Sequence record: MN850631.1 | Length of the DNA: 64,000 bases | Source: Escherichia phage mio | Direction: 5' to 3' (one strand) | Shown: positions 47,463-64,000 of the stretch, one piece after another | Layout of the letters: each line of letters opens with the position of its first letter | How positions within the stretch are numbered: position 1 is the stretch's first letter | Position numbers and translations under genes: made by a program | The notes under the pieces: generated by a model | Told to the model about the DNA's origin: nothing | The model's input: the letters and a program-made list of their open reading frames with translations, nothing else | The model's database searches: none

Positions 47463-47505
47463 AAAAAAAGGCTCCTTTTTACGGGAGCCTTAAAATTTTA
47501 TTTTT
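47463..47505. terminator. putative bidirectional intrinsic terminator between convergent thyA and tail operon
   Basis: AGGCTCC-N8-GGAGCCT hairpin flanked by an A-run upstream and T-rich run downstream. Confidence 0.5.
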
Positions 47506-48143: not shown

Positions 48144-50492
48144 TTAAGCAGTTCTCACCCAAGCCATTAACTTATAGAACTGGTTAGTTACACTAAATGC
48201 TGAACCAGAACCTGTACTTCCAGTGTTACCACTCACTGTATGGCTGTGAGCACCAATACCAACACTGTGAGCATGGTTACCATTTGATGCAGCAGTACCA
48301 CTTACTGAGTGTGAGTGATTCCCAGCACTACCCGTTTGTACGGTATTCCTGTTACCATCAGAATCCCAATCACCCCTTGTACCACTTGGTTGCGCACCAG
48401 TAGTATAACCATGTGTATGGGCACCTGTTGTGTTCGTTGAACCACTCACTGAGTGGGTGTGAGCACCAGTAGTGTTAGTGGTTTTTGTTCCGTAGTCAAA
48501 AGATGAAGTAGTAGCAGAAAAACTGTGTGTGTGTGATGGTAAGTTACCAACAGCTAACGTCACAGAATCTGAACCACCAGTTGTAGCAACATCTGAACCA
48601 TTTGCTGCTGCAATTCTGATAGTTCTACCAACACCATTATTCAGGTACGTCCAAGTTAGACCAGGCAGTGCTGTATTAGGGTTAACATTACTGTTAAACC
48701 ACGTTACAATACCTACTGGATAGATTTTATTAAGGTCTGTAGAGTCACTTACTGCCTGTGCAATCTTCTGGTCAGTCTCAGTTTTAGTGTATGCACCGAT
48801 GTCTGAAGGGGATGGTTTATCTTGGTCTGTATAGATTTTAGCCCAAGTATTCTCAAATCCATACCCATCTCTCGCTGACCTATACCAAAAACCACCATTC
48901 CTATAGTTAAATTTTAATTGAGCAGATGGTGTAGAGCTACCACCCTGATACATATGGTAGACTAGTTGTGTTGAACCACCAGATTCCCCTGTAACATTAT
49001 ACAGACCAGTTCTAGCAGTCCAAGCGATACCATCACCATCACCTACCTCTGTACCAGTGCCAGAAGAGTAAGCAAACATATACCTAGAGTTTGCGTCAGA
49101 TTTCGTATAATATCTAGCATCTAAGTTAGACCAATCTGAAGGTTGAACCTGTCCAGTGATTGCTAAAGTTGCATTCATTTCAAATGCTGAACCGATGGTA
49201 AGACCTTTACCTGTTTTGTAGTTAAACAGCCTTAAGTTGTTATTGTTATCAGCATCACCATTACCAACATACCACTTAGCTGTCCCATCAGCAGATAACC
49301 CTCTAATGAACAATGTCGTTGCAGTTTTTGCTTTTAACGCAAGAGCTTCACCATCAGAGTTGATAACTTGTCGTACAGAAAATGTATTGACAACATTAGT
49401 TCTTGCAATCGTACTTAATGTTGCTGCCGGAATATATCTAGAGTCAATGTTAGTCCAATCTGAAGGTTGAACTTGACCAGTTACAGTTAGTGTTTTATTG
49501 ATATTAACACTTGTCCCTACAGTAATTTTGCCACCAGTTTTGTAGTTTTCTAGAGCTACGTTATCACCTTCATTACTATTACCAATGTACCATCTGTTGA
49601 CACCTGCGCTATCAATCGCTTTAATGTACAATGGCTGTGCAGCATTGGCATTCTGTAGCCTAATTGCCTCACCATCTTTTTTGAAAATACTTAGTTGGTT
49701 AAACGTGTTAGTGCCAGTGAAATTATTATTAGCAGCTAACTGTGCAAATCTCTGATTAGCTACTGTCTGAGTAAAGTATCTAGCATCTAAGTTGGAGAAG
49801 TCAGAAGGTTGAACTTGACCAGTAATAGCAAGGGTTTTATTAATAGCAACACTTGTGCCTAGAGTAATGGTTGAACCTTGTTCACTCTCAATTTGAACAT
49901 CTCGGCTGCCTTTAATTAGGTTCCCGATAGCCCAAACTTTTTCACTACTAGCATCCCTAGCTACAACAGCAGTGTATGCCTCACTAGCACTTGCAGGGTT
50001 TCTTAGTGTTAGAATCTCCCCATTTGCTGTAATAGTCTGCTTGACGTTAAACGTGTTTGAGTTAGCCAACCTTGCATACCTTGCATCATTCTCTTCATTA
50101 GTTCTCATCCCAAGTTCATTAGGGCTTGGCTTATTCAAAGTATGGTAAACAGTTGCTGACCTTGAAGCATCTGCAATAGTTAGTTTAAGGCCATTTGCGT
50201 TGATTTTAAAAGCCTTTAAAACATCCCCCATAGTAATCTCAGAAGAGCCTGTAGGGTCAAACACTGCCTTACCACCATAAAGTAACTTGACAATTCCTAA
50301 GTCACCAGTCATAGTGCTGCCAGCAATCTGAACAAATCTTTCAAGCTTAAAAGATGCTAAGAAGTCTTGATAGGTCATTCGACGGTCTTCATCACCCAGC
50401 ATTTCAGGTCTCTTTTTAACTCTGACATGGAGAAGGTCGTCTGAACGAATTGTGTCGATTGAGTTTAACTGACTCAATTTGTAATCTGCCAT
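48144..50492 (-). CDS. tail fiber protein with three internal repeat domains and HxH-rich C-terminal tip
   Basis: 782 aa; repeated TGQVQPSDW/F.N.D.RY units; C-terminal TNTTGAHTHSVSGS...GNHSHSVSGTAASNGNHAH. Confidence 0.7.
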   Translation of the reverse strand: MADYKLSQLNSIDTIRSDDLLHVRVKKRPEMLGDEDRRMTYQDFLASFKLERFVQIAGSTMTGDLGIVKLLYGGKAVFDPTGSSEITMGDVLKAFKINANGLKLTIADASRSATVYHTLNKPSPNELGMRTNEENDARYARLANSNTFNVKQTITANGEILTLRNPASASEAYTAVVARDASSEKVWAIGNLIKGSRDVQIESEQGSTITLGTSVAINKTLAITGQVQPSDFSNLDARYFTQTVANQRFAQLAANNNFTGTNTFNQLSIFKKDGEAIRLQNANAAQPLYIKAIDSAGVNRWYIGNSNEGDNVALENYKTGGKITVGTSVNINKTLTVTGQVQPSDWTNIDSRYIPAATLSTIARTNVVNTFSVRQVINSDGEALALKAKTATTLFIRGLSADGTAKWYVGNGDADNNNNLRLFNYKTGKGLTIGSAFEMNATLAITGQVQPSDWSNLDARYYTKSDANSRYMFAYSSGTGTEVGDGDGIAWTARTGLYNVTGESGGSTQLVYHMYQGGSSTPSAQLKFNYRNGGFWYRSARDGYGFENTWAKIYTDQDKPSPSDIGAYTKTETDQKIAQAVSDSTDLNKIYPVGIVTWFNSNVNPNTALPGLTWTYLNNGVGRTIRIAAANGSDVATTGGSDSVTLAVGNLPSHTHSFSATTSSFDYGTKTTNTTGAHTHSVSGSTNTTGAHTHGYTTGAQPSGTRGDWDSDGNRNTVQTGSAGNHSHSVSGTAASNGNHAHSVGIGAHSHTVSGNTGSTGSGSAFSVTNQFYKLMAWVRTA

Positions 50493-50507
50493 TATAAGTT
50501 TTCCTCT

Positions 50508-50528
50508 TAAAAGGGGCTATAAAGCCCC
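50508..50528 (-). terminator. putative intrinsic terminator between the two fiber genes
   Basis: GGGGCT-ATAA-AGCCCC hairpin with T-run on the minus strand. Confidence 0.4.
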
Positions 50529-50538
50529 TGTAAAGAAA

Positions 50539-51705
50539 TTAAGCTGTTCTCTGCCATACATACAGAACAAAGGATGGTTGTTCAACACTGAATGCTTGTC
50601 CAGAACCTGTAGAACCAGTTGTACCAGAATGTGAGTGCTCTGTTGTTGAAATACTCACACTACCACTGTGAGTGTGTGAACCAATATTAGTTACATGGGT
50701 GTGTGAACCAATATTTAAAGTGTGAGCATGGTTACCATTTGATGCAGCAGTACCACTTACTGAGTGTGAGTGATTCCCAGCACTATCCGTTTGTACGGTA
50801 TTTCTGTGACCATCTCTGTCCCAATCTCCAGATGCACCTGTTGATTGATAACCAGTAATATAACCATGCGTATGAGCACCAGTAGTGTTCGTTGAGCCAC
50901 TCACTGAGTGGGTGTGAGCACCAGTAGTGTTAGTGGTTTTAGTTCCGTAGTCAAAGCTAGAGGTTGTCTTAGTCCCATAATCAAAGGAACTAATAGACAT
51001 TGTTGCTCCATGTGTGTGACCACCACCAGTGACGTATACTGAGTGAGTATGTGCAGGGATGTTGTTAACTGTCAGTGCAGTAGTTTGCGAACCAAACGTT
51101 GAACCAACTGGCCTAGAAGCACTATCATAACCCACGAGTGCTCTTCCTTTTGAAACTAACTCCCAAGTACCTCCACAAATTAAATATGTAGAGGGGTTTG
51201 CAGGATTCATAGAGAGATGGATAGTACCTACTGGATAAGAAGCCTGAACAGCCTTGTACAAGTTATTTACTGCTCTTGCTGTAGCGTACTTATCTGCATC
51301 TTCATTATAAAGATTAGATGTTGTCCAGTTCTGGACATTACTCAAACCAACCTGTGCTTTAGTTGTATTGTGTGGGTTACTCTTATCATTAATATGTTGT
51401 TGAACAAGGTTATTAACCTCTTCTGAAGACATAATCTGTAGATTTGCTCTTGCCTCAGCTACATTAGTAACGTCTGATAAGTTGTTTTCAGCAACTAACT
51501 GGAGAGCATTAATAACATTATCTAAACCAATTTGTGTCTTAGTAACACCATGAGGGTTATTTCTCAGGCTTGAGTGTGGAGCAAGTAGTTGCTCAAGAGT
51601 GCATCTCTTATCCTCAATACCCTGCTTAAGATGGAAGATATCACTAAGGTCAATTGGTAAGGCTGCTTGAGGCAAGGCACTAATTTGAATTTCACCTACT
51701 GCCAT
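50539..51705 (-). CDS. tail fiber protein (second, shorter) sharing the HxH-rich C-terminal tip
   Basis: 388 aa; C-terminal TNTTGAHTHSVSGSTNTTGAHTHGY...GNHSHSVSGTAASNGNHAH near-identical to the larger fiber. Confidence 0.65.
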   Translation of the reverse strand: MAVGEIQISALPQAALPIDLSDIFHLKQGIEDKRCTLEQLLAPHSSLRNNPHGVTKTQIGLDNVINALQLVAENNLSDVTNVAEARANLQIMSSEEVNNLVQQHINDKSNPHNTTKAQVGLSNVQNWTTSNLYNEDADKYATARAVNNLYKAVQASYPVGTIHLSMNPANPSTYLICGGTWELVSKGRALVGYDSASRPVGSTFGSQTTALTVNNIPAHTHSVYVTGGGHTHGATMSISSFDYGTKTTSSFDYGTKTTNTTGAHTHSVSGSTNTTGAHTHGYITGYQSTGASGDWDRDGHRNTVQTDSAGNHSHSVSGTAASNGNHAHTLNIGSHTHVTNIGSHTHSGSVSISTTEHSHSGTTGSTGSGQAFSVEQPSFVLYVWQRTA

Positions 51706-51707
51706 TA

Positions 51708-59726
<8,019 letters not shown>

Positions 59727-59727
<1 letters not shown>

Positions 59728-59966
59728 TACATTTTTCCTGCTCTTCTAAGTTCGTTGTAAGCAATTTCCTCTTTATACGACCTCTGAATTTCAAGAAATT
59801 GTCTCAATGATAATAAATCAGAGAATGTCATAGCAAAGAGTTGGTCAAGTGTTTCTTTACACCCTTCCATACCATAAATAGCAAGCACAAATTTCATCTC
59901 GTCTGCTTCTTCATAGGTTGCCTCTACAGCAGCATCAGTTAGTGGTGTCTGTAGAGTGTTACCCAT
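59727..59966 (-). CDS. -1 frame extension ORF of tail assembly chaperone (C-terminal part of the predicted frameshift fusion)
   Basis: Frame is open from slippery site TTTTTTC (60005-60011) through to stop at 59727. Confidence 0.5.
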
Positions 59967-59968
59967 GT

Positions 59969-60367
59969 TTACTGAGAAGTTAGGCTTTTGAAAATGCTTG
60001 CTTCGAAAAAACTTCCGAAGTTTGCCTCCAGCGCAAATGCTAAGTAATCAATAAATTCACCGTAGTTTGCTTGGAAGTACGTATCAATATTAAGTGGGAA
60101 GTCGTCAACAGTTGCCCCTTGAAATAACAGGGTTGCCATCTCTTCAAGGTTAATTTCTTCAATTCTGTCAAAACAAGCTTCAACAAGTTCTTTAAATGGA
60201 ACCGTCGGAGCTTCCTTCTTACTCTTGTCAGTCAGACTTGATAGCATCTGTGCAAAGGTTGGAACAACAATTTTACCCAACTTCATAGACATCTTAATAC
60301 CGTCTCTTGCCCCAAGCAGAACGATATTTACTTTCTTACCATTAATTACTCTAAATTCTGTTTTCAT
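59969..60367 (-). CDS. tail assembly chaperone (132 aa)
   Basis: Directly upstream of tape measure gene; contains slippery heptamer near its 3' end. Confidence 0.55.
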   Translation of the reverse strand: MKTEFRVINGKKVNIVLLGARDGIKMSMKLGKIVVPTFAQMLSSLTDKSKKEAPTVPFKELVEACFDRIEEINLEEMATLLFQGATVDDFPLNIDTYFQANYGEFIDYLAFALEANFGSFFEASIFKSLTSQ

Positions 60368-60392
60368 TGTGATTCCTTAATACTTTTAAAAG

Positions 60393-60428
60393 AAACAAAA
60401 AAGGGGAAGACCTTTTAAAGTCTCCCCC
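60393..60428 (-). terminator. putative intrinsic terminator downstream of tail tube gene
   Basis: GTCTCCCC/GGGGAAGAC hairpin (one bulge) followed by a long T-run on the minus strand. Confidence 0.45.
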
Positions 60429-60440
60429 TTATAGGATTTA

Positions 60441-60887
60441 TTAAACACTTGACGCTGGAATTGTAGAAGTGTAGTCTAACTTCTCACAACCAAAAATCCA
60501 AGTTTTAGAGTTCTGGTCACGACCAAGTTCAATCTGTGGTAACTCCTGCAACCAAGCGTTAATACCAGTTGCCAGAACAGAGCCTGATGGGTCGTAGATT
60601 ACGAAGTTAGAAGAGATATCTTCTTCAAGTTCCATATTGTCTTGTTTAGCTTGAATTGCAGAAAGCATCTGGTTAGAGAGAGAAGTCTGCATTAACTCAA
60701 TCTCAATAGTACCTGTCTTGTCTGCATTTCTTGTCAGAGCAACCTGACCACCTGCACCAACAACTGGTGTCACAAGTGGTGATGTTCTCTGTAGACGCAA
60801 GAATGAGTCTGGGGCAAAGCCTTCAATGGCAATACCATTCCAGCTACATACAACGTCTTTAGGGGAATATTGCTGATACATAGCCAT
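60441..60887 (-). CDS. putative tail tube protein (148 aa)
   Basis: Size and position between sheath and chaperones; followed by terminator. Confidence 0.5.
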   Translation of the reverse strand: MAMYQQYSPKDVVCSWNGIAIEGFAPDSFLRLQRTSPLVTPVVGAGGQVALTRNADKTGTIEIELMQTSLSNQMLSAIQAKQDNMELEEDISSNFVIYDPSGSVLATGINAWLQELPQIELGRDQNSKTWIFGCEKLDYTSTIPASSV

Positions 60888-60902
60888 TCCAATTTACCTC
60901 TA

Positions 60903-62255
60903 TTATTCGTAAGCCACTGTACCTTTCAAGTCAACATCCAAGATAGCCCCTGCTAAGATACCTGCGAAGGTAACATCTTTCAGGATACGTGCTTTCTTGT
61001 CTGCTAAAGCAACTTGAGAGGCTTTAGGAACATTAACTGTGTAAGATGACAGGAAGTTTCTGTTGACTGCTCTTTGCAGAGAGGTTTCAATGACTTGACG
61101 AATACGGGTAATACCAGTATCATCATAAGTAATCTTACCACCCTTCTGGTTAATTAGCAAGTCTCTCAGAGAAGTTTTCAGGTCTGATTCTAACCAGTCA
61201 ACACCACGGACGATATCAATCCATTCCCCACCAGAAGTAATCCCTCTACGAACCACTGGAACACCACCATCAAGGTCAATAAAGTTACAGTGACGTACAT
61301 CTAAAGCAGACTTCTGAATACTTGTCAGAGGTCTCTGATTAGATGGTTGCAGAGAAGCTGCTACACCAGTTAGCTGAGCATTACCCCAAGCAATTGAACC
61401 TGCATCATATGGAGCACCATAAGCAATGTATGCCATCTCTGGATAATCTGCTGCTGCTGCGTGATGCCACAAGCAAACTGTACGAGTGTACATATTCTTA
61501 GCAAGCTGTGCTGGAACATCATTCGCACTGGCTAATTCTGTACCTTGCAGGGCTGTTACATCGGAGTTAGCCGTAAAGAAGATTTTCTTGCGAGCCTGAA
61601 TCTCAGAAGCCATTGCTAAGACAAACTGTTGAGTTCTATCTTCTGCTGCAATGAAATACCAGTCGGTAGAATAAGCTTCGATAGCTGCCAGAGCAGTTGC
61701 TGCTGTATCGGCAGTTGTACTTGCAATATATACAGTCTGTGCTGTGGTTGTTACTTTCACAAAGTCATTATCACCAGCTTTGGTAATAATCATTGTTGCA
61801 GAGCCATTGCTACCAGTTACGTTCACAGAAACCTTATCTTTGATTGTTGGGTCAGCTTCAATCTGTGTTTTAAACTGTTGCAACACGTTTTCAGCAGTGT
61901 CTTCAGCTTGCGCTGTATACTGATATGGTTGAGAAATTCCACCGCCAGCAGCTACAGTAATTGAGTAGTCTGTACTTTCAGCAACGGCATTAGGAATTGA
62001 TACAGTGTACTGCATAGCACGTCTACCAATATAAAGCTGAGTTACTTTAGGAGTCTGACTCCAAAGTTGTTTAGCAGCCTTATATGCAGCAGTATTCTCA
62101 TCGAAATCTTCAGCAACTTCAGTTAAGGAAGTGTAACCACGTACTCTTTCTTCAAAATTATCTGTTGAAGCTAAGAATAGTGGCAAACCAAAACCTTCTC
62201 TTGTAGTTCCTGCGGTGTTCAATGTAATATCTACATTAACAATTGGATTCCACAT
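60903..62255 (-). CDS. putative tail sheath protein (450 aa)
   Basis: Size and position immediately upstream of tube gene. Confidence 0.55.
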   Translation of the reverse strand: MWNPIVNVDITLNTAGTTREGFGLPLFLASTDNFEERVRGYTSLTEVAEDFDENTAAYKAAKQLWSQTPKVTQLYIGRRAMQYTVSIPNAVAESTDYSITVAAGGGISQPYQYTAQAEDTAENVLQQFKTQIEADPTIKDKVSVNVTGSNGSATMIITKAGDNDFVKVTTTAQTVYIASTTADTAATALAAIEAYSTDWYFIAAEDRTQQFVLAMASEIQARKKIFFTANSDVTALQGTELASANDVPAQLAKNMYTRTVCLWHHAAAADYPEMAYIAYGAPYDAGSIAWGNAQLTGVAASLQPSNQRPLTSIQKSALDVRHCNFIDLDGGVPVVRRGITSGGEWIDIVRGVDWLESDLKTSLRDLLINQKGGKITYDDTGITRIRQVIETSLQRAVNRNFLSSYTVNVPKASQVALADKKARILKDVTFAGILAGAILDVDLKGTVAYE

Positions 62256-62855
62256 TTATTTTACCCCTTTGGAGTCTACATCTAGATGGATAGTATATTC
62301 TGGTGGCTCTTGTCCTTCTTCATAAACCAACTCACCATCAACAATGACACGCTCAATAATACTTCCACGTTCATCCTTCAGGACTGAGTTTTTTACAAGA
62401 GTTACAACAAGAGGCGCAGAATTTTCGAAATCTGTATTGAGATAAGTATAGTCATTCGGGATAGCTCCAGTGTCTAGTACTGTAGCCCCTGTTTCTTCAA
62501 GGATTAAATCTCTGACTGAACTCATCTCTAATCGTTGTTTAAGCTCAAGCATAATACTGTGAGCACCTTTACCATTTACCGTAATCAATACAGGAATCTG
62601 AAAAGCAATTCTGTAGCAAACTACATCATCCTCAACAAACTTATCAAGAACCCAACCATAAGGTGTTGCAGCATCTTGACAATATACGGTGATAAATGGC
62701 TGGTCAGGTTTTAAACCTTTGTCATTTGAGTTATCAGAAGGGTAAGCTCTAATTACGTTTGGTCTATTATTTTTATCACGAGCTAATCTGTGACCAATAA
62801 CATCCACTAAGGTTCTAACTAGACCTTTTTCAAGTTCTGCTGTTTCTAACTGCAT
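62256..62855 (-). CDS. hypothetical structural protein (199 aa)
   Basis: Upstream of sheath gene. Confidence 0.4.
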   Translation of the reverse strand: MQLETAELEKGLVRTLVDVIGHRLARDKNNRPNVIRAYPSDNSNDKGLKPDQPFITVYCQDAATPYGWVLDKFVEDDVVCYRIAFQIPVLITVNGKGAHSIMLELKQRLEMSSVRDLILEETGATVLDTGAIPNDYTYLNTDFENSAPLVVTLVKNSVLKDERGSIIERVIVDGELVYEEGQEPPEYTIHLDVDSKGVK

Positions 62856-63231
62856 TCATTTTATCCCTTCTAATAATGATATATTCATAATGGGACGTAT
62901 GGGCTAATTGCTGTGACCAATCCATCGTCATAAATACTTCATACTCATGACCATCAATCATAACAATATCAGACTCATTCCACTCTACATCATCTGAAGT
63001 TCTAAGTTTATATGTGGTATACAGGATTCTTGTATCGGTAAGCCTGATACCTTCCGGTAAAGCAATCTGTGTACCATTCTTTACAGAACCTTTGATATAT
63101 GGCTGGATATTACCTTTGCAGTTAACCTCTACAATATCTTGTGAAGCTACCCAATCACCATCATCATTATAATAACCGTCTTCAGAGACTTTACGCTTTA
63201 CTACAAAGCTGTGTCTGTTTAAGAGTCTCAT
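62830..63231 (-). CDS. hypothetical structural protein (133 aa)
   Basis: Overlapping neighbours in late operon. Confidence 0.4.
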   Translation of the reverse strand: MRLLNRHSFVVKRKVSEDGYYNDDGDWVASQDIVEVNCKGNIQPYIKGSVKNGTQIALPEGIRLTDTRILYTTYKLRTSDDVEWNESDIVMIDGHEYEVFMTMDWSQQLAHTSHYEYIIIRRDKMNAVRNSRT

Positions 63232-63710
63232 TTCTTAATACCCTTCTTAGTAGAAATTTTATAAGCAAGGTTATCTCTTAAGTCACCTGTCTCAACAAGA
63301 GGTGCGTTAAAGCCTTTTTTCTTGACTGTGGAAGGTGCGTTAGGAGGGAGGATAGCAGAATTACCAAAGCCCCTTTTAATTGCCTTTTGAGCATTCTTTG
63401 CAAATGCTTCTAAGGTATCTGAAGGGTCTGTGTTGAGACTGCTAAGTTGCTTATATAGATTCTTCTTAGTCTGCTCTAACAAGGTCTGTTTGGTTAGCAT
63501 CATAGTGATTTCAAACAACCTACGATATACTTTACCAGAAGCTGAAGGAACCCCAATAACTTCTTGTAAATACATTAAAGCAGGATAAGAAAAACCAGAG
63601 CTATGTTGACCTTGTTCTTGAAAATACCCAACTTGAGCATTAGCCGTTTGCAAGTTCTTCATAGCCCCGACTAATTTTGCTCTAGCGGGGTGAATAACCC
63701 TTTTAACCAT
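63228..63710 (-). CDS. hypothetical structural protein (160 aa)
   Basis: ATGA overlap with upstream gene. Confidence 0.4.
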   Translation of the reverse strand: MVKRVIHPARAKLVGAMKNLQTANAQVGYFQEQGQHSSGFSYPALMYLQEVIGVPSASGKVYRRLFEITMMLTKQTLLEQTKKNLYKQLSSLNTDPSDTLEAFAKNAQKAIKRGFGNSAILPPNAPSTVKKKGFNAPLVETGDLRDNLAYKISTKKGIKK

Positions 63711-63973
63711 TATTCATCTCGCTCGATAATAAATACGCCATTAACACGGTTGCAGTAATCTCTACCTTCGTATTTGGCAGCATCACCATATTCTGTGTAT
63801 TTCTTGACAGAGCAAGGATTCTGACGACGCATATCAATATCGCACTGATTAATACCACCTGCATAGGGTAGTCCTGAAACAGAGCTTTTAACAAGGTCGT
63901 CATAAACAGCTTTCAGAGATTTGAATCTGGAAGAGTTACGTAAATAAACACCACCAACCTTCTCATCTCCCAT
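63710..63973 (-). CDS. hypothetical structural protein (87 aa)
   Basis: ATG 63971-63973; near window edge. Confidence 0.4.
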   Translation of the reverse strand: MGDEKVGGVYLRNSSRFKSLKAVYDDLVKSSVSGLPYAGGINQCDIDMRRQNPCSVKKYTEYGDAAKYEGRDYCNRVNGVFIIERDE

Positions 63974-64000
63974 CTTGGCTACTTGAAAGAGTAAATATTT

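What the first reader, a model, noticed from the sequence alone, without database searches (positions are those of the whole stretch)
48144..51705. Two tail-fiber genes share a near-identical HxH-rich distal tip (duplicated receptor-binding module)
The 3' ends of the two fiber genes share stretches of near-identical DNA (for example 48268-48352 versus 50722-50806 and 48431-48490 versus 50891-50945). These encode Gly/Thr/His-rich repeats (TNTTGAHTHSVSGS..., GNHSHSVSGTAASNGNHAH) like the metal-binding HxH boxes of T4 gp37-type fiber tips. The shared tip on different shafts suggests recent duplication or gene conversion, a route for host-range change.
Basis: partly seen in the sequence, partly recalled or inferred. 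Interest (0 to 1): 0.5.

Follow-up and report, generated by a model that had tools for sequence, protein, structure and literature searches.

The report
Recombined tips of two phage fibres
The short and long tail-fibre genes of this Felix O1-like phage share a 261-base patch at their receptor-binding tips that recombination copied between them: a real but fairly ordinary case of host-range shuffling on a fibre design that is already described.

Summary
An ungapped 261-nt block (48240-48500 vs 50695-50955) is 87% identical between two genes that are otherwise about 49-62% identical in their tips. The block includes a 65-nt perfect run (permutation P<5e-5) and is identical at silent sites.

The genes are the long fibre (LTF, 782 aa) and short fibre (STF, 388 aa) of a Felixounavirus. 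Both tips match the solved T4 gp37 tip (2XGF). Cryo-EM of the close relative Bas63 has already shown both fibres in the virion with this collar-needle(HxH)-head tip, so the architecture is known.

The block is not a recent duplication. It is a recombination or gene-conversion mosaic between old paralogues, and its edges lie in conserved FDYGTK and HxH motifs. The window's STF keeps an STF-type collar and C-terminus but has LTF-type needle flanks. The receptor-contacting head is the most divergent part of the block: 8 of 28 residues differ, and those differences are old and specific to each gene.

Across 14 Salmonella-infecting relatives with a different head type, heads are more alike within a genome than between genomes (P=1e-5; three lineages have 100% identical heads). 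Exchange between the two fibres therefore recurs.

This is a new member of a known kind, of moderate interest.

The parts
48144..50492 (-). Long tail fibre gene (LTF, 782 aa), orthologue of Felix O1 gp77 and Bas63 gp27
   Evidence: ORF. PHROG 4277 'tail fiber protein', full length, 1335 bits. Pfam gp37_trimer x3, gp37_C, Phage_fiber. Same position as the annotated fibre genes in relatives. The N-terminal 130 aa are 96-98% identical to Bas63 and Felix O1.
50539..51705 (-). Short tail fibre gene (STF, 388 aa), orthologue of Felix O1 gp76 and Bas63 gp26
   Evidence: ORF. PHROG 2097 'tail fiber protein', E 3e-138. Pfam Gp10_C, 62 bits against a cut-off of 27. 2XGF match at E 8.8e-25. The N-terminal 156 aa are 96-97% identical to Bas63 and Felix O1.
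48240..48500 (-). LTF copy of the shared 261-nt block (aa 665-751)
   Evidence: ungapped, 87.4% identical to 50695-50955.
50695..50955 (-). STF copy of the shared 261-nt block (aa 251-337)
48411..48506 (-). LTF ascending-needle segment (aa 663-694, SSFDYGTKTTNTTGAHTHSVSGSTNTTGAHTH; two HxH motifs). STF counterpart: 50866-50961
   Evidence: 90% nt identity between the paralogues, pN 0.03. The STF copy is 0.91-0.94 identical to LTFs that carry three different head types, but only about 0.67 (median) to other STFs.
48327..48410 (-). LTF head insert (aa 695-722, GYTTGAQPSGTRGDWDSDGNRNTVQTGS; 'GDWD' type A). STF counterpart: 50782-50865 (GYITGYQSTGASGDWDRDGHRNTVQTDS)
   Evidence: It aligns to the T4 gp37 head segment between the third and fourth HxH motifs of 2XGF. 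77% nt identity, 8 of 28 residues differ. Codon table.
48267..48326 (-). LTF descending-needle segment (aa 723-742, AGNHSHSVSGTAASNGNHAH; two HxH motifs). STF counterpart: 50722-50781
   Evidence: 60 of 60 nt identical between the paralogues, pS = 0. It lies inside the 65-nt perfect run.
48534..48722 (-). LTF collar domain (aa 591-653), similar to T4 gp10 and gp37. STF counterpart: about 51052-51237 (aa 157-218)
   Evidence: Pfam Gp10_C. PDB hits 2XGF, 2FKK and 5HX2. Paralogue nt identity is only 0.49 here, which serves as the baseline.
48738..49067 (-). LTF internal domain (aa 476-585) similar to the phage Mu tail fibre S
   Evidence: Pfam gp37_C, E 4e-25. phmmer to PDB 8JU3, E 1.9e-23. Not part of the shared block.
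49111..49868 (-). Three diverged shaft repeats of the LTF (92-nt cores at 49111, 49435 and 49777; motif ITGQVQPSD[WF].N[LI]D.RY)
   Evidence: Repeat family D2, 70-78% identical. Pfam gp37_trimer, 3 stretches. The Bas63 paper describes beta-helix repeat domains here.

Best explanation
The window comes from a Felix O1-like myophage (Felixounavirus). The two genes encode its short and long tail fibres. Both fibres attach to the baseplate through conserved N-termini, and both end in a T4 gp37-type receptor-binding tip. That tip has a gp10-like collar and a trimeric beta-needle held together by HxH motifs. By homology with T4 each HxH layer binds one metal ion, giving 6 predicted layers in the LTF and 9 in the STF. 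At the far end is a small head insert where the chain turns back. Because of that turn, the shared 261-nt block encodes one physically contiguous unit: the head plus the four needle layers nearest to it. The block is a mosaic made by homologous recombination (gene-conversion-type, non-reciprocal exchange) between the two old paralogous tips. The conserved needle-repeat DNA (FDYGTK and GxHxH motifs) serves as the homology arms, in the way shown experimentally for T-even adhesins. In the allele carried here (shared with 'phage A132'), the STF kept its own collar, C-terminus and the 5' half of its head. Its ascending needle flank, the 3' half of the head and the descending flank are LTF-type (JH2/HK3-type LTF). 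Eight head residues stay specific to each gene, probably because selection keeps two related but distinct receptor specificities. The likely receptors are LPS-core epitopes of Escherichia or Citrobacter. Shown here: the homology, the tract, its boundaries, the silent-site identity, the mosaic pattern, and recurrent exchange in relatives. Inferred: metal binding, the receptor, the role of selection, and whether the exchange happened inside one genome or between co-infecting genomes.
For: Identity of the genes: and the papers read. The tract is real and non-random: (65-nt perfect run against a permuted maximum of 37). It is not purifying selection alone: pS is 0.00 (descending flank) and 0.33 (ascending flank) against 0.52-0.53 outside the block. 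JH2's STF encodes almost the same flank peptides yet differs from the LTF flanks at pS 0.56-0.64. The pattern is allele-specific, not genus-wide: paralogue identity per segment is about 0.49 (collar), 0.3 (head) and 0.4-0.6 (descending flank) in most of 37 genomes, but 0.90/0.77/1.00 across the window's ascending flank, head and descending flank. Mosaic and direction: the window's STF collar and C-terminus are nearest to STF orthologues (0.94-0.97), its ascending flank is nearest to LTFs of head types A, B and C (0.91-0.94), and its descending flank is 1.00 to its own LTF. In the head, pS is 0.33 to the LTF but 0.78-0.89 to other type-A STFs, while pN is 0.21 against 0.03-0.05. The codon table shows the switch at about head codon 17/18. 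Recurrence: in 14 distinct genomes with the type-B head on both fibres, within-genome LTF-STF head identity is 0.896 against 0.838 between genomes (permutation P=1e-5), with no effect in four control segments. UAB_Phi87, Seyj1-1 and BPS17L1 each have 100% identical paralogue heads that carry private variants (perfect runs of 98 nt in UAB_Phi87 and 126 nt in Seyj1-1). Head as specificity module: type B occurs in 86 records, 80 of them Salmonella phages; type A occurs only in Escherichia/Citrobacter-associated phages; L008 and L009 carry a T4-like head. Precedent for recombination at conserved adhesin motifs: Tetart et al. 1996 and 1998, as summarised in PMC3157838.
Against: No structure could be predicted: the single-chain AF2 model had pLDDT 36.6. 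The domain mapping therefore rests on sequence alignment to 2XGF and on the Bas63 paper. For this window the head clusters by gene at the amino-acid level, so any recent conversion did not carry the whole head. The patchy pattern could also come from several separate events, or from an STF-to-LTF transfer followed by divergence. 'A132' carries the same STF allele (96.5%) with a different LTF head. So the exchange predates this genome, and at least one later inter-genomic recombination occurred. An intragenomic origin is not demonstrated for the window. The segments are short (60-96 nt), so the pS and pN estimates have wide errors. The receptor and metal content are untested.
Confidence: 0.75

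Rival explanations
1. The shared block was not exchanged between the two genes inside one genome. Instead, each gene acquired it separately by recombination with other co-infecting phages, drawing on a common pool of tip cassettes (ectopic inter-genomic exchange).
For: The locus is strongly mosaic. The LTF tip is 94.5% identical to JH2/HK3 and the STF tip 96.5% to A132, and no record covers more than 86% of the locus. A132 and JLBYU28 pair a type-A STF with a type-C LTF. The same head types occur in unrelated phages: phiNP (45 kb), P2-like Salmonella phages and T4-like phages.
Against: Three lineages have 100% identical LTF and STF heads with private variants. Within-genome identity exceeds between-genome identity at P=1e-5, and only in the head. 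This is most simply explained by exchange between co-resident copies. Even in this rival the event is still a transfer between an LTF-type and an STF-type tip, so only the venue differs.
Confidence: 0.2
2. The similarity is retained ancestral sequence, held by strong purifying selection on the structurally constrained, metal-binding needle repeats. No recent exchange took place.
For: The flanks encode conserved HxH and FDYGTK motifs found in nearly all tips. pN in the flanks is about 0-0.03.
Against: Silent sites are identical too (pS 0.00 in the descending flank). The same peptides in JH2, HK3 and JLBYU28 STFs are encoded with pS 0.42-0.68 relative to the window's STF and LTF. Most genomes show only 0.4-0.7 identity in these segments. 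The run-length test gives P<5e-5.
Confidence: 0.03
3. A recent tandem duplication of a fibre gene, or of its 3' end, produced two copies of the tip that are now diverging.
For: The two genes are adjacent, in the same orientation, with homologous C-terminal tips.
Against: Both genes are present at the same position in every one of about 47 Felixounavirus loci examined. The collars are 49% and the C-termini about 60% identical in every genome, and the N-termini and shafts are unrelated. The high-identity part is an internal patch, not the whole tip.
Confidence: 0.02

Closest known systems
Bas63 (Escherichia phage JohannRWettstein) STF gp26 and LTF gp27, cryo-EM 2025 (PMC12609058); Felix O1 gp76 and gp77 (PMC3185647)
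   Same: Same genes in the same position. The backbone DNA is 97.7% identical and the N-terminal baseplate-binding domains are 96-98% identical. Both fibres are in the virion, and both end in a gp37-like tip made of a collar, an HxH needle and a head.
   Different: The heads differ: Bas63 has the ISWIGQNS type on its LTF and the FINRGY type on its STF, and no paralogue block longer than 50 nt. HxH counts also differ (window 6 and 9; Bas63 6 and 7). The papers do not report sequence exchange between the two fibres.
T4 gp37 receptor-binding tip (PDB 2XGF)
   Same: Direct sequence homology across the collar, the HxH needle repeats and the position of the head insert. The FDYGTK and GxHxH motifs are shared. 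L008 and L009 relatives even carry a T4-like head sequence.
   Different: The head sequence differs (28 aa GDWD type against the 31 aa T4 head). The number of HxH layers differs. No gp38-, gp57A- or Tfa-like chaperone is recognisable beside the genes. In this phage the tip sits on two different fibres. Iron binding is untested here.
Recombination at conserved motifs that swaps adhesin specificity in T-even phages (Tetart et al. 1996 and 1998; summarised in PMC3157838)
   Same: Short conserved motifs flank hypervariable specificity segments and act as crossover points. The tract edges here fall in FDYGTK and HxH motifs.
   Different: In the T-evens, exchange was shown between phages or with plasmid copies of the same gene. 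Here donor and recipient are two different fibre genes (paralogues), and in relatives the result is matched heads on both fibres. No experiment was done here.
Concerted evolution of paralogues where selection keeps the specificity residues (the general gene-conversion pattern; named from the author's own knowledge, not tested or cited here)
   Same: Silent sites and flanks are homogenised while a few functional residues stay copy-specific.
   Different: This is a viral genome with very short tracts (60-130 nt). Intragenomic conversion and inter-genomic recombination cannot be told apart from sequence alone.

Membership tests
T4 gp37-type receptor-binding tip (collar-needle-head, PDB 2XGF) | Sequence homology to the solved tip across the collar and needle | tested here: met
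   phmmer: STF aa 146-355 to 2XGF residues 18-223, E 8.8e-25; LTF aa 652-762, E 1.3e-13.
T4 gp37-type receptor-binding tip (collar-needle-head, PDB 2XGF) | gp10-like collar domain | tested here: met
   Pfam Gp10_C: STF 62 bits against a cut-off of 27. The LTF scores 24.3 bits, just below the cut-off. PDB hits to T4 gp10 (2FKK, 5HX2) for the STF.
T4 gp37-type receptor-binding tip (collar-needle-head, PDB 2XGF) | Series of HxH motifs on both the ascending and descending halves, with a head insert between them | tested here: met
   LTF has 6 HxH motifs (3 + 3) and STF has 9 (4 + 5). A 28-aa insert aligns to the T4 head segment.
T4 gp37-type receptor-binding tip (collar-needle-head, PDB 2XGF) | Interwoven trimeric six-stranded needle with octahedral metal sites | tested here: inconclusive
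   The single-chain AF2 model failed (pLDDT 36.6). The tools offer no multimer or metal prediction. The feature is supported only by homology and by the Bas63 cryo-EM description.
T4 gp37-type receptor-binding tip (collar-needle-head, PDB 2XGF) | Dedicated folding chaperone (gp38/gp57A in T4) | tested here: not met
   The neighbouring small ORFs match only PHROGs of unknown function, and no Tfa-like gene is adjacent. A chaperone elsewhere in the genome was not searched for.
Felixounavirus STF/LTF pair (Bas63 gp26/gp27) | Position between the baseplate wedge/LTF-platform genes and the holin/td genes, with conserved N-terminal baseplate-binding domains | tested here: met
   Gene order. N-termini 96-98% identical; the 100-aa and 285-aa upstream proteins are 97-99% identical.
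Felixounavirus STF/LTF pair (Bas63 gp26/gp27) | Both proteins present in the virion | not testable with these tools
   Shown for Bas63 by cryo-EM. In Felix O1, gp77 was found by mass spectrometry at 31% coverage and gp76 at only 9%.
Gene-conversion / recombination tract between paralogues | A sharply bounded block of high identity, including silent sites, inside otherwise diverged paralogues | tested here: met
   0.90/0.77/1.00 inside the block against 0.49 and 0.62 outside; run test P<5e-5; pS 0.00-0.33 inside against 0.52 outside.
Gene-conversion / recombination tract between paralogues | Paralogues in one genome closer to each other than to orthologues in other genomes | tested here: inconclusive
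   In the window this is met for the needle flanks (the descending flank is 1.00 to its own LTF against about 0.85 to the other type-A STF orthologues, though A132's STF is 0.98) and at silent sites of the head. It is not met at amino-acid level in the head. It is clearly met in type-B relatives (P=1e-5).
Motif-mediated adhesin swapping (Tetart-type) | Tract boundaries coincide with conserved motifs | tested here: met
   The left edge is at the FDYGTK codons and the right edge just after NGNHAH. The perfect runs in relatives end in or next to conserved HxH motifs.

The most novel reading that the evidence does not exclude
In Felixounaviruses the two co-resident fibre genes may form a standing donor/acceptor pair. 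Frequent intragenomic conversion across the conserved HxH needle repeats would copy head cassettes from one fibre to the other, so a new receptor specificity gained by one fibre spreads quickly to the second. This would explain the matched heads in most Salmonella-infecting members. Selection would hold a few residues apart where dual specificity pays, as in this window. That would make paralogue conversion a built-in host-range mechanism rather than an occasional accident.
Probability: 0.3. Interest if true: 0.55.

Novelty: new member of a known kind. Interest (0 to 1): 0.35.

Why it matters
Felix O1-like phages are used for Salmonella typing, biocontrol and therapy, and their host range depends on these two fibres. 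The results show three things. The distal head plus the adjacent needle layers behave as a cassette that moves between the two fibres of one phage and between unrelated phage families. Head type tracks host genus (type B with Salmonella; type A with Escherichia and Citrobacter). A handful of head residues stay specific to each fibre. Together these give a concrete design rule for fibre engineering: swap at the FDYGTK and HxH junctions. They also give a testable list of candidate specificity residues, namely head positions 6, 8, 9, 11, 12, 17, 20 and 27. For this window itself the result is mainly a well-documented example of known phage-fibre mosaicism.

Tried and rejected
(1) AlphaFold2 single-chain prediction of the STF tip gave pLDDT 36.6 and pTM 0.12, with essentially no secondary structure. 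This is expected for an interdigitated, metal-bound trimer, so no fold search was run on it.

(2) A regex-based extraction of head inserts failed for most alleles. It was replaced by an alignment-based extraction.

(3) The T4 gp37 tip paper (PMC2996694) and the T4 fibre-domain review (PMC5899708) are not held. A literature search for 'His boxes' returned nothing useful. The T-even precedent is therefore cited through PMC3157838.

(4) The paper opened for phiNP's receptor (PMC12892995) is about other phages, Eifel1 and Eifel2. It only shows LPS-core dependence of a Citrobacter-infecting Felixounavirus.

(5) One script failed on a file name and was re-run.

(6) Purifying selection alone, recent tandem duplication and compositional similarity were considered and rejected (see the rival explanations). 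An assembly artefact was also rejected, because the two alleles occur independently in JH2/HK3 and in A132.

(7) The promoter/terminator scan of the locus found nothing above the shuffled expectation, apart from the bidirectional terminator at 47468-47491.

(8) The large protein-database searches were not used, because the phage DNA collections already answered the question.
Full report
**What is at the coordinates.** The interval holds two adjacent minus-strand ORFs, 48144-50492 (782 aa) and 50539-51705 (388 aa), separated by 46 nt. The whole interval matches 232 phage records, nearly all of them Felix O1-like myophages (Felixounavirus) of Escherichia and Salmonella, where these ORFs are annotated as tail fibre proteins (loci). 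The adjoining tail/baseplate DNA (52000-64000) is 97.5-97.9% identical to E. coli Felixounaviruses, including Bas63. No record covers more than 86% of the fibre interval, so the fibre locus is the divergent part of an otherwise ordinary genome.

The N-terminal 130 and 156 residues of the two proteins are 96-98% identical to Bas63 gp27/gp26 and Felix O1 gp77/gp76. The shaft of the long protein is only 48-53% identical, and the tips are 69-85% identical. I call the two genes LTF (long) and STF (short), following the Bas63 cryo-EM paper.

**Checking the observation.** The repeat finder and pairwise blastn both report a single ungapped 261-nt direct repeat, 48240-48500 vs 50695-50955, at 87.4% identity (E 2.6e-91 in the pairwise search). 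It is in-frame in both genes (LTF aa 665-751, STF aa 251-337).

The true pairs are 48268-48352 / 50723-50807 (83 of 85 identical) and 48431-48490 / 50886-50945 (58 of 60).

- Over the 570 alignable tip positions the two genes are 68% identical, yet they contain a 65-nt perfect run. None of 20,000 permutations of the differences exceeded 37. There is also an 81-nt window with one mismatch, against a permuted minimum of 8.
- Outside the block, nucleotide identity is 0.49 in the collar and 0.62 in the C-terminus.

**What the tips are.** Both C-termini match the crystal structure of the T4 gp37 receptor-binding tip, 2XGF (STF E 8.8e-25 over chain residues 18-223; LTF E 1.3e-13). The STF collar also matches T4 gp10 (Pfam Gp10_C, gp37_C, gp37_trimer and Phage_fiber).

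The alignment places the window's HxH motifs on the T4 HxH motifs. It places a 28-residue insert (LTF GYTTGAQPSGTRGDWDSDGNRNTVQTGS; STF GYITGYQSTGASGDWDRDGHRNTVQTDS) where T4 has its head segment. The LTF has 6 HxH motifs and the STF has 9.

None of this architecture is new:

- Whichard et al. 2010 noted that both Felix O1 gp76 and gp77 resemble T4 gp37 at the C-terminus, and found gp77 (and weakly gp76) in virions.
- The 2025 Bas63 cryo-EM study shows both a 430-A STF and a 630-A LTF on the baseplate. Each has a collar, a six-stranded HxH needle in which the chain doubles back, and a small head.

Because the chain doubles back, the shared block (ascending needle, head, descending needle) corresponds to one contiguous physical unit. 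That unit is the head plus the four HxH layers next to it. This is an inference from the alignment. My single-chain AF2 model was useless (pLDDT 36.6).

**Duplication, selection or exchange?** I extracted the STF and LTF tips from 37 and later 47 Felixounavirus loci, codon-aligned them, and split them into collar, ascending needle, head, descending needle and C-terminus.

- In every genome the collars are about 0.44-0.52 identical and the C-termini about 0.47-0.65 identical between LTF and STF. The genes are therefore old paralogues, not a recent duplication.
- In most genomes the central segments are also diverged (head about 0.3). Bas63 and allfine share no stretch longer than about 50 nt.
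- The window is an exception, at 0.90 / 0.77 / 1.00 for ascending flank, head and descending flank.

Purifying selection cannot explain this. Synonymous divergence is 0.00 in the descending segment and 0.33 in the ascending one, against 0.52-0.53 outside the block. The STFs of JH2, HK3 and JLBYU28 encode almost the same flank peptides but differ from the window's sequences at pS 0.42-0.68.

**The mosaic in this window.** The LTF tip is 94.5% identical to the LTF tips of phages JH2 and HK3. The STF tip is 96.5% identical to the STF of the record labelled 'Campylobacter phage A132', and the next best match is 79%. Segment-wise nearest neighbours of the window's STF are as follows:

| STF segment | Nearest neighbours |
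|---|---|
| Collar and C-terminus | STF orthologues (0.94-0.97) |
| Ascending flank | After A132's STF, LTFs carrying three different head types (0.91-0.94) |
| Descending flank | Its own LTF (1.00), then the JH2 LTF (0.98) |

The STF allele therefore carries LTF-type needle flanks, which argues for LTF-to-STF transfer.

Inside the head the signal splits. At silent sites the window's STF is close to the LTF (pS 0.28-0.33) and far from the other type-A STFs (pS 0.78-0.89). At replacement sites the reverse holds (pN 0.19-0.21 against 0.03-0.05).

The codon table shows why. Head codons 6-17 are STF-type. Codons 18-28 are LTF-type at every silent site, apart from two single-base replacements (H20 and D27).

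Both amino-acid subtypes are old. The LTF subtype also occurs in the unrelated 45-kb Citrobacter phage phiNP, with saturated silent divergence (pS 0.61-0.73).

The window's STF is thus a multi-patch mosaic, and the eight fibre-specific head residues have been kept. This fits conversion under selection, although separate events or the opposite direction for part of the tract cannot be excluded. A132 carries the same STF allele beside a different LTF head. The exchange therefore predates this genome and was followed by inter-genomic reassortment.

**Exchange between the two fibres is recurrent in the genus.** The alignment of all tips shows about ten discrete head types per fibre. Only two occur on both fibres: type A (GDWD; window, JH2, HK3) and type B (GGxYGGDSIGGK; Felix O1 and many Salmonella phages).

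- Type B is found in 86 phage records, 80 of them Salmonella phages, at 145 places. Of the 51 listed Felixounavirus-sized records, 39 have it at two or more places.
- UAB_Phi87, Seyj1-1 and BPS17L1 each have LTF and STF heads that are 100% identical in nucleotides while carrying variants private to that phage. The perfect runs are 98 nt in UAB_Phi87 and 126 nt in Seyj1-1.
- In 14 distinct genomes with type B on both fibres, within-genome LTF-STF head identity is 0.896 against 0.838 between genomes (permutation P=1e-5). Collar, C-terminus and both needle flanks show no such effect (P=0.13-0.72).

This is the signature of concerted evolution, and it is confined to the head cassette.

**Head cassettes also cross phage families.**

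- Type B is in P2-like and T4-like Salmonella and E. coli phages.
- Type A is in phiNP.
- L008 and L009 carry a near-T4 head on their LTFs.

**Mechanism and comparison with what is known.** The tract edges fall in the conserved FDYGTK and HxH codons. This is the arrangement shown experimentally for T-even adhesins, where crossovers in short conserved motifs swap the hypervariable specificity segments (Tetart et al. 1996 and 1998, summarised in PMC3157838). What differs here is that donor and recipient are two different fibre genes of the same virion.

The Bas63 paper reports high variability in both tips but says nothing about exchange between them. I found no paper that does, though the library is incomplete. 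No chaperone-like gene lies beside the fibres.

The receptor is not known for type A. Related Felixounaviruses depend on the LPS core.

**Verdict.** It is wrong on 'recent duplication' and imprecise on the 'duplicated receptor-binding module', because the head is the part that differs most. The architecture is already published and the process is of a known kind. The window adds a new allele combination and a clean example. The genus-wide evidence for head-cassette concerted evolution between STF and LTF is a modest new point.

- Interest: 0.35.
- Novelty: new member of a known kind.

Noticed in passing
L004 (MG065664.1 'Campylobacter phage A132', UNVERIFIED); also GU169904.1 'Staphylococcus phage SA1' and MG065668.1 'Campylobacter phage A126': Records labelled as Campylobacter or Staphylococcus phages contain typical Felixounavirus fibre loci. 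A132's STF tip is 96.5% identical to the window's. The host labels are probably wrong, or the samples were contaminated or mixed.
   Followed up: partly
L008 and L009 (IMG/VR UViG_2706795709 and UViG_2706796285), LTF tip: Their LTF head inserts (YIEAWNGTG.GG.KMSSYAV.YR.GGSNTNA) are almost the T4 gp37 head sequence. This implies head-cassette exchange between Tevenvirinae and Felixounavirus. The STF-tip search also hit 11 Tequatrovirus records.
   Followed up: partly
L041 (OR565852.1, Citrobacter phage phiNP) 2425-3851: A 45-kb unrelated phage has a 282-aa 'tail collar fiber protein' with a T4-like collar and needle and the window's LTF-subtype GDWD head (about 92% aa). A tail fibre assembly gene follows it. 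Beyond that lie a serine acetyltransferase gene and a hicAB toxin-antitoxin pair.
   Followed up: partly
window 48738-49067 (LTF aa 476-585): An internal LTF domain matches the phage Mu tail fibre S (PDB 8JU3, E 1.9e-23; Pfam gp37_C). The LTF therefore combines a Mu-S-like domain with a gp37-like tip.
   Followed up: no
window 49111-49868: Three diverged copies (70-78%) of a repeat of about 330 nt in the LTF shaft (ITGQVQPSD[WF].N[LI]D.RY; Pfam gp37_trimer x3). This shaft region is only 48-53% identical to Bas63 and Felix O1, although the N-termini are nearly identical.
   Followed up: no
window 50866-50990 (STF aa about 239-280): The STF has a tandem duplication of the FDYGTKTT motif (SSFDYGTKTTSSFDYGTKTTN) where the LTF has one copy. 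Some relatives (L029, L031, L033) have three. This recalls the duplications of a small adhesin domain described for T4.
   Followed up: no
L012 (86,231-bp contig, the length published for phage EC6) and L016 (84,419-bp contig, the record length of Salmonella phage Si3): The LTF ORFs are truncated (541 and 453 aa), as the Bas63 paper also noted for EC6 and Si3. This may be a frameshift or a sequencing error.
   Followed up: no
window 47468-47491: A perfect bidirectional terminator-like hairpin (AAGGCTCC...GGAGCCTT) lies between the converging thymidylate synthase gene (+) and the genes downstream of the fibres (-).
   Followed up: no
L030 and L051 (BPS17S6 group), LTF tip: These LTFs have a much shorter, aberrant head region (...GGYINSFYGDSSHTSFQPGGGAW...) and lack the descending repeat, while their STFs carry a normal type-B head. 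This is a distinct tip variant and was not examined.
   Followed up: no
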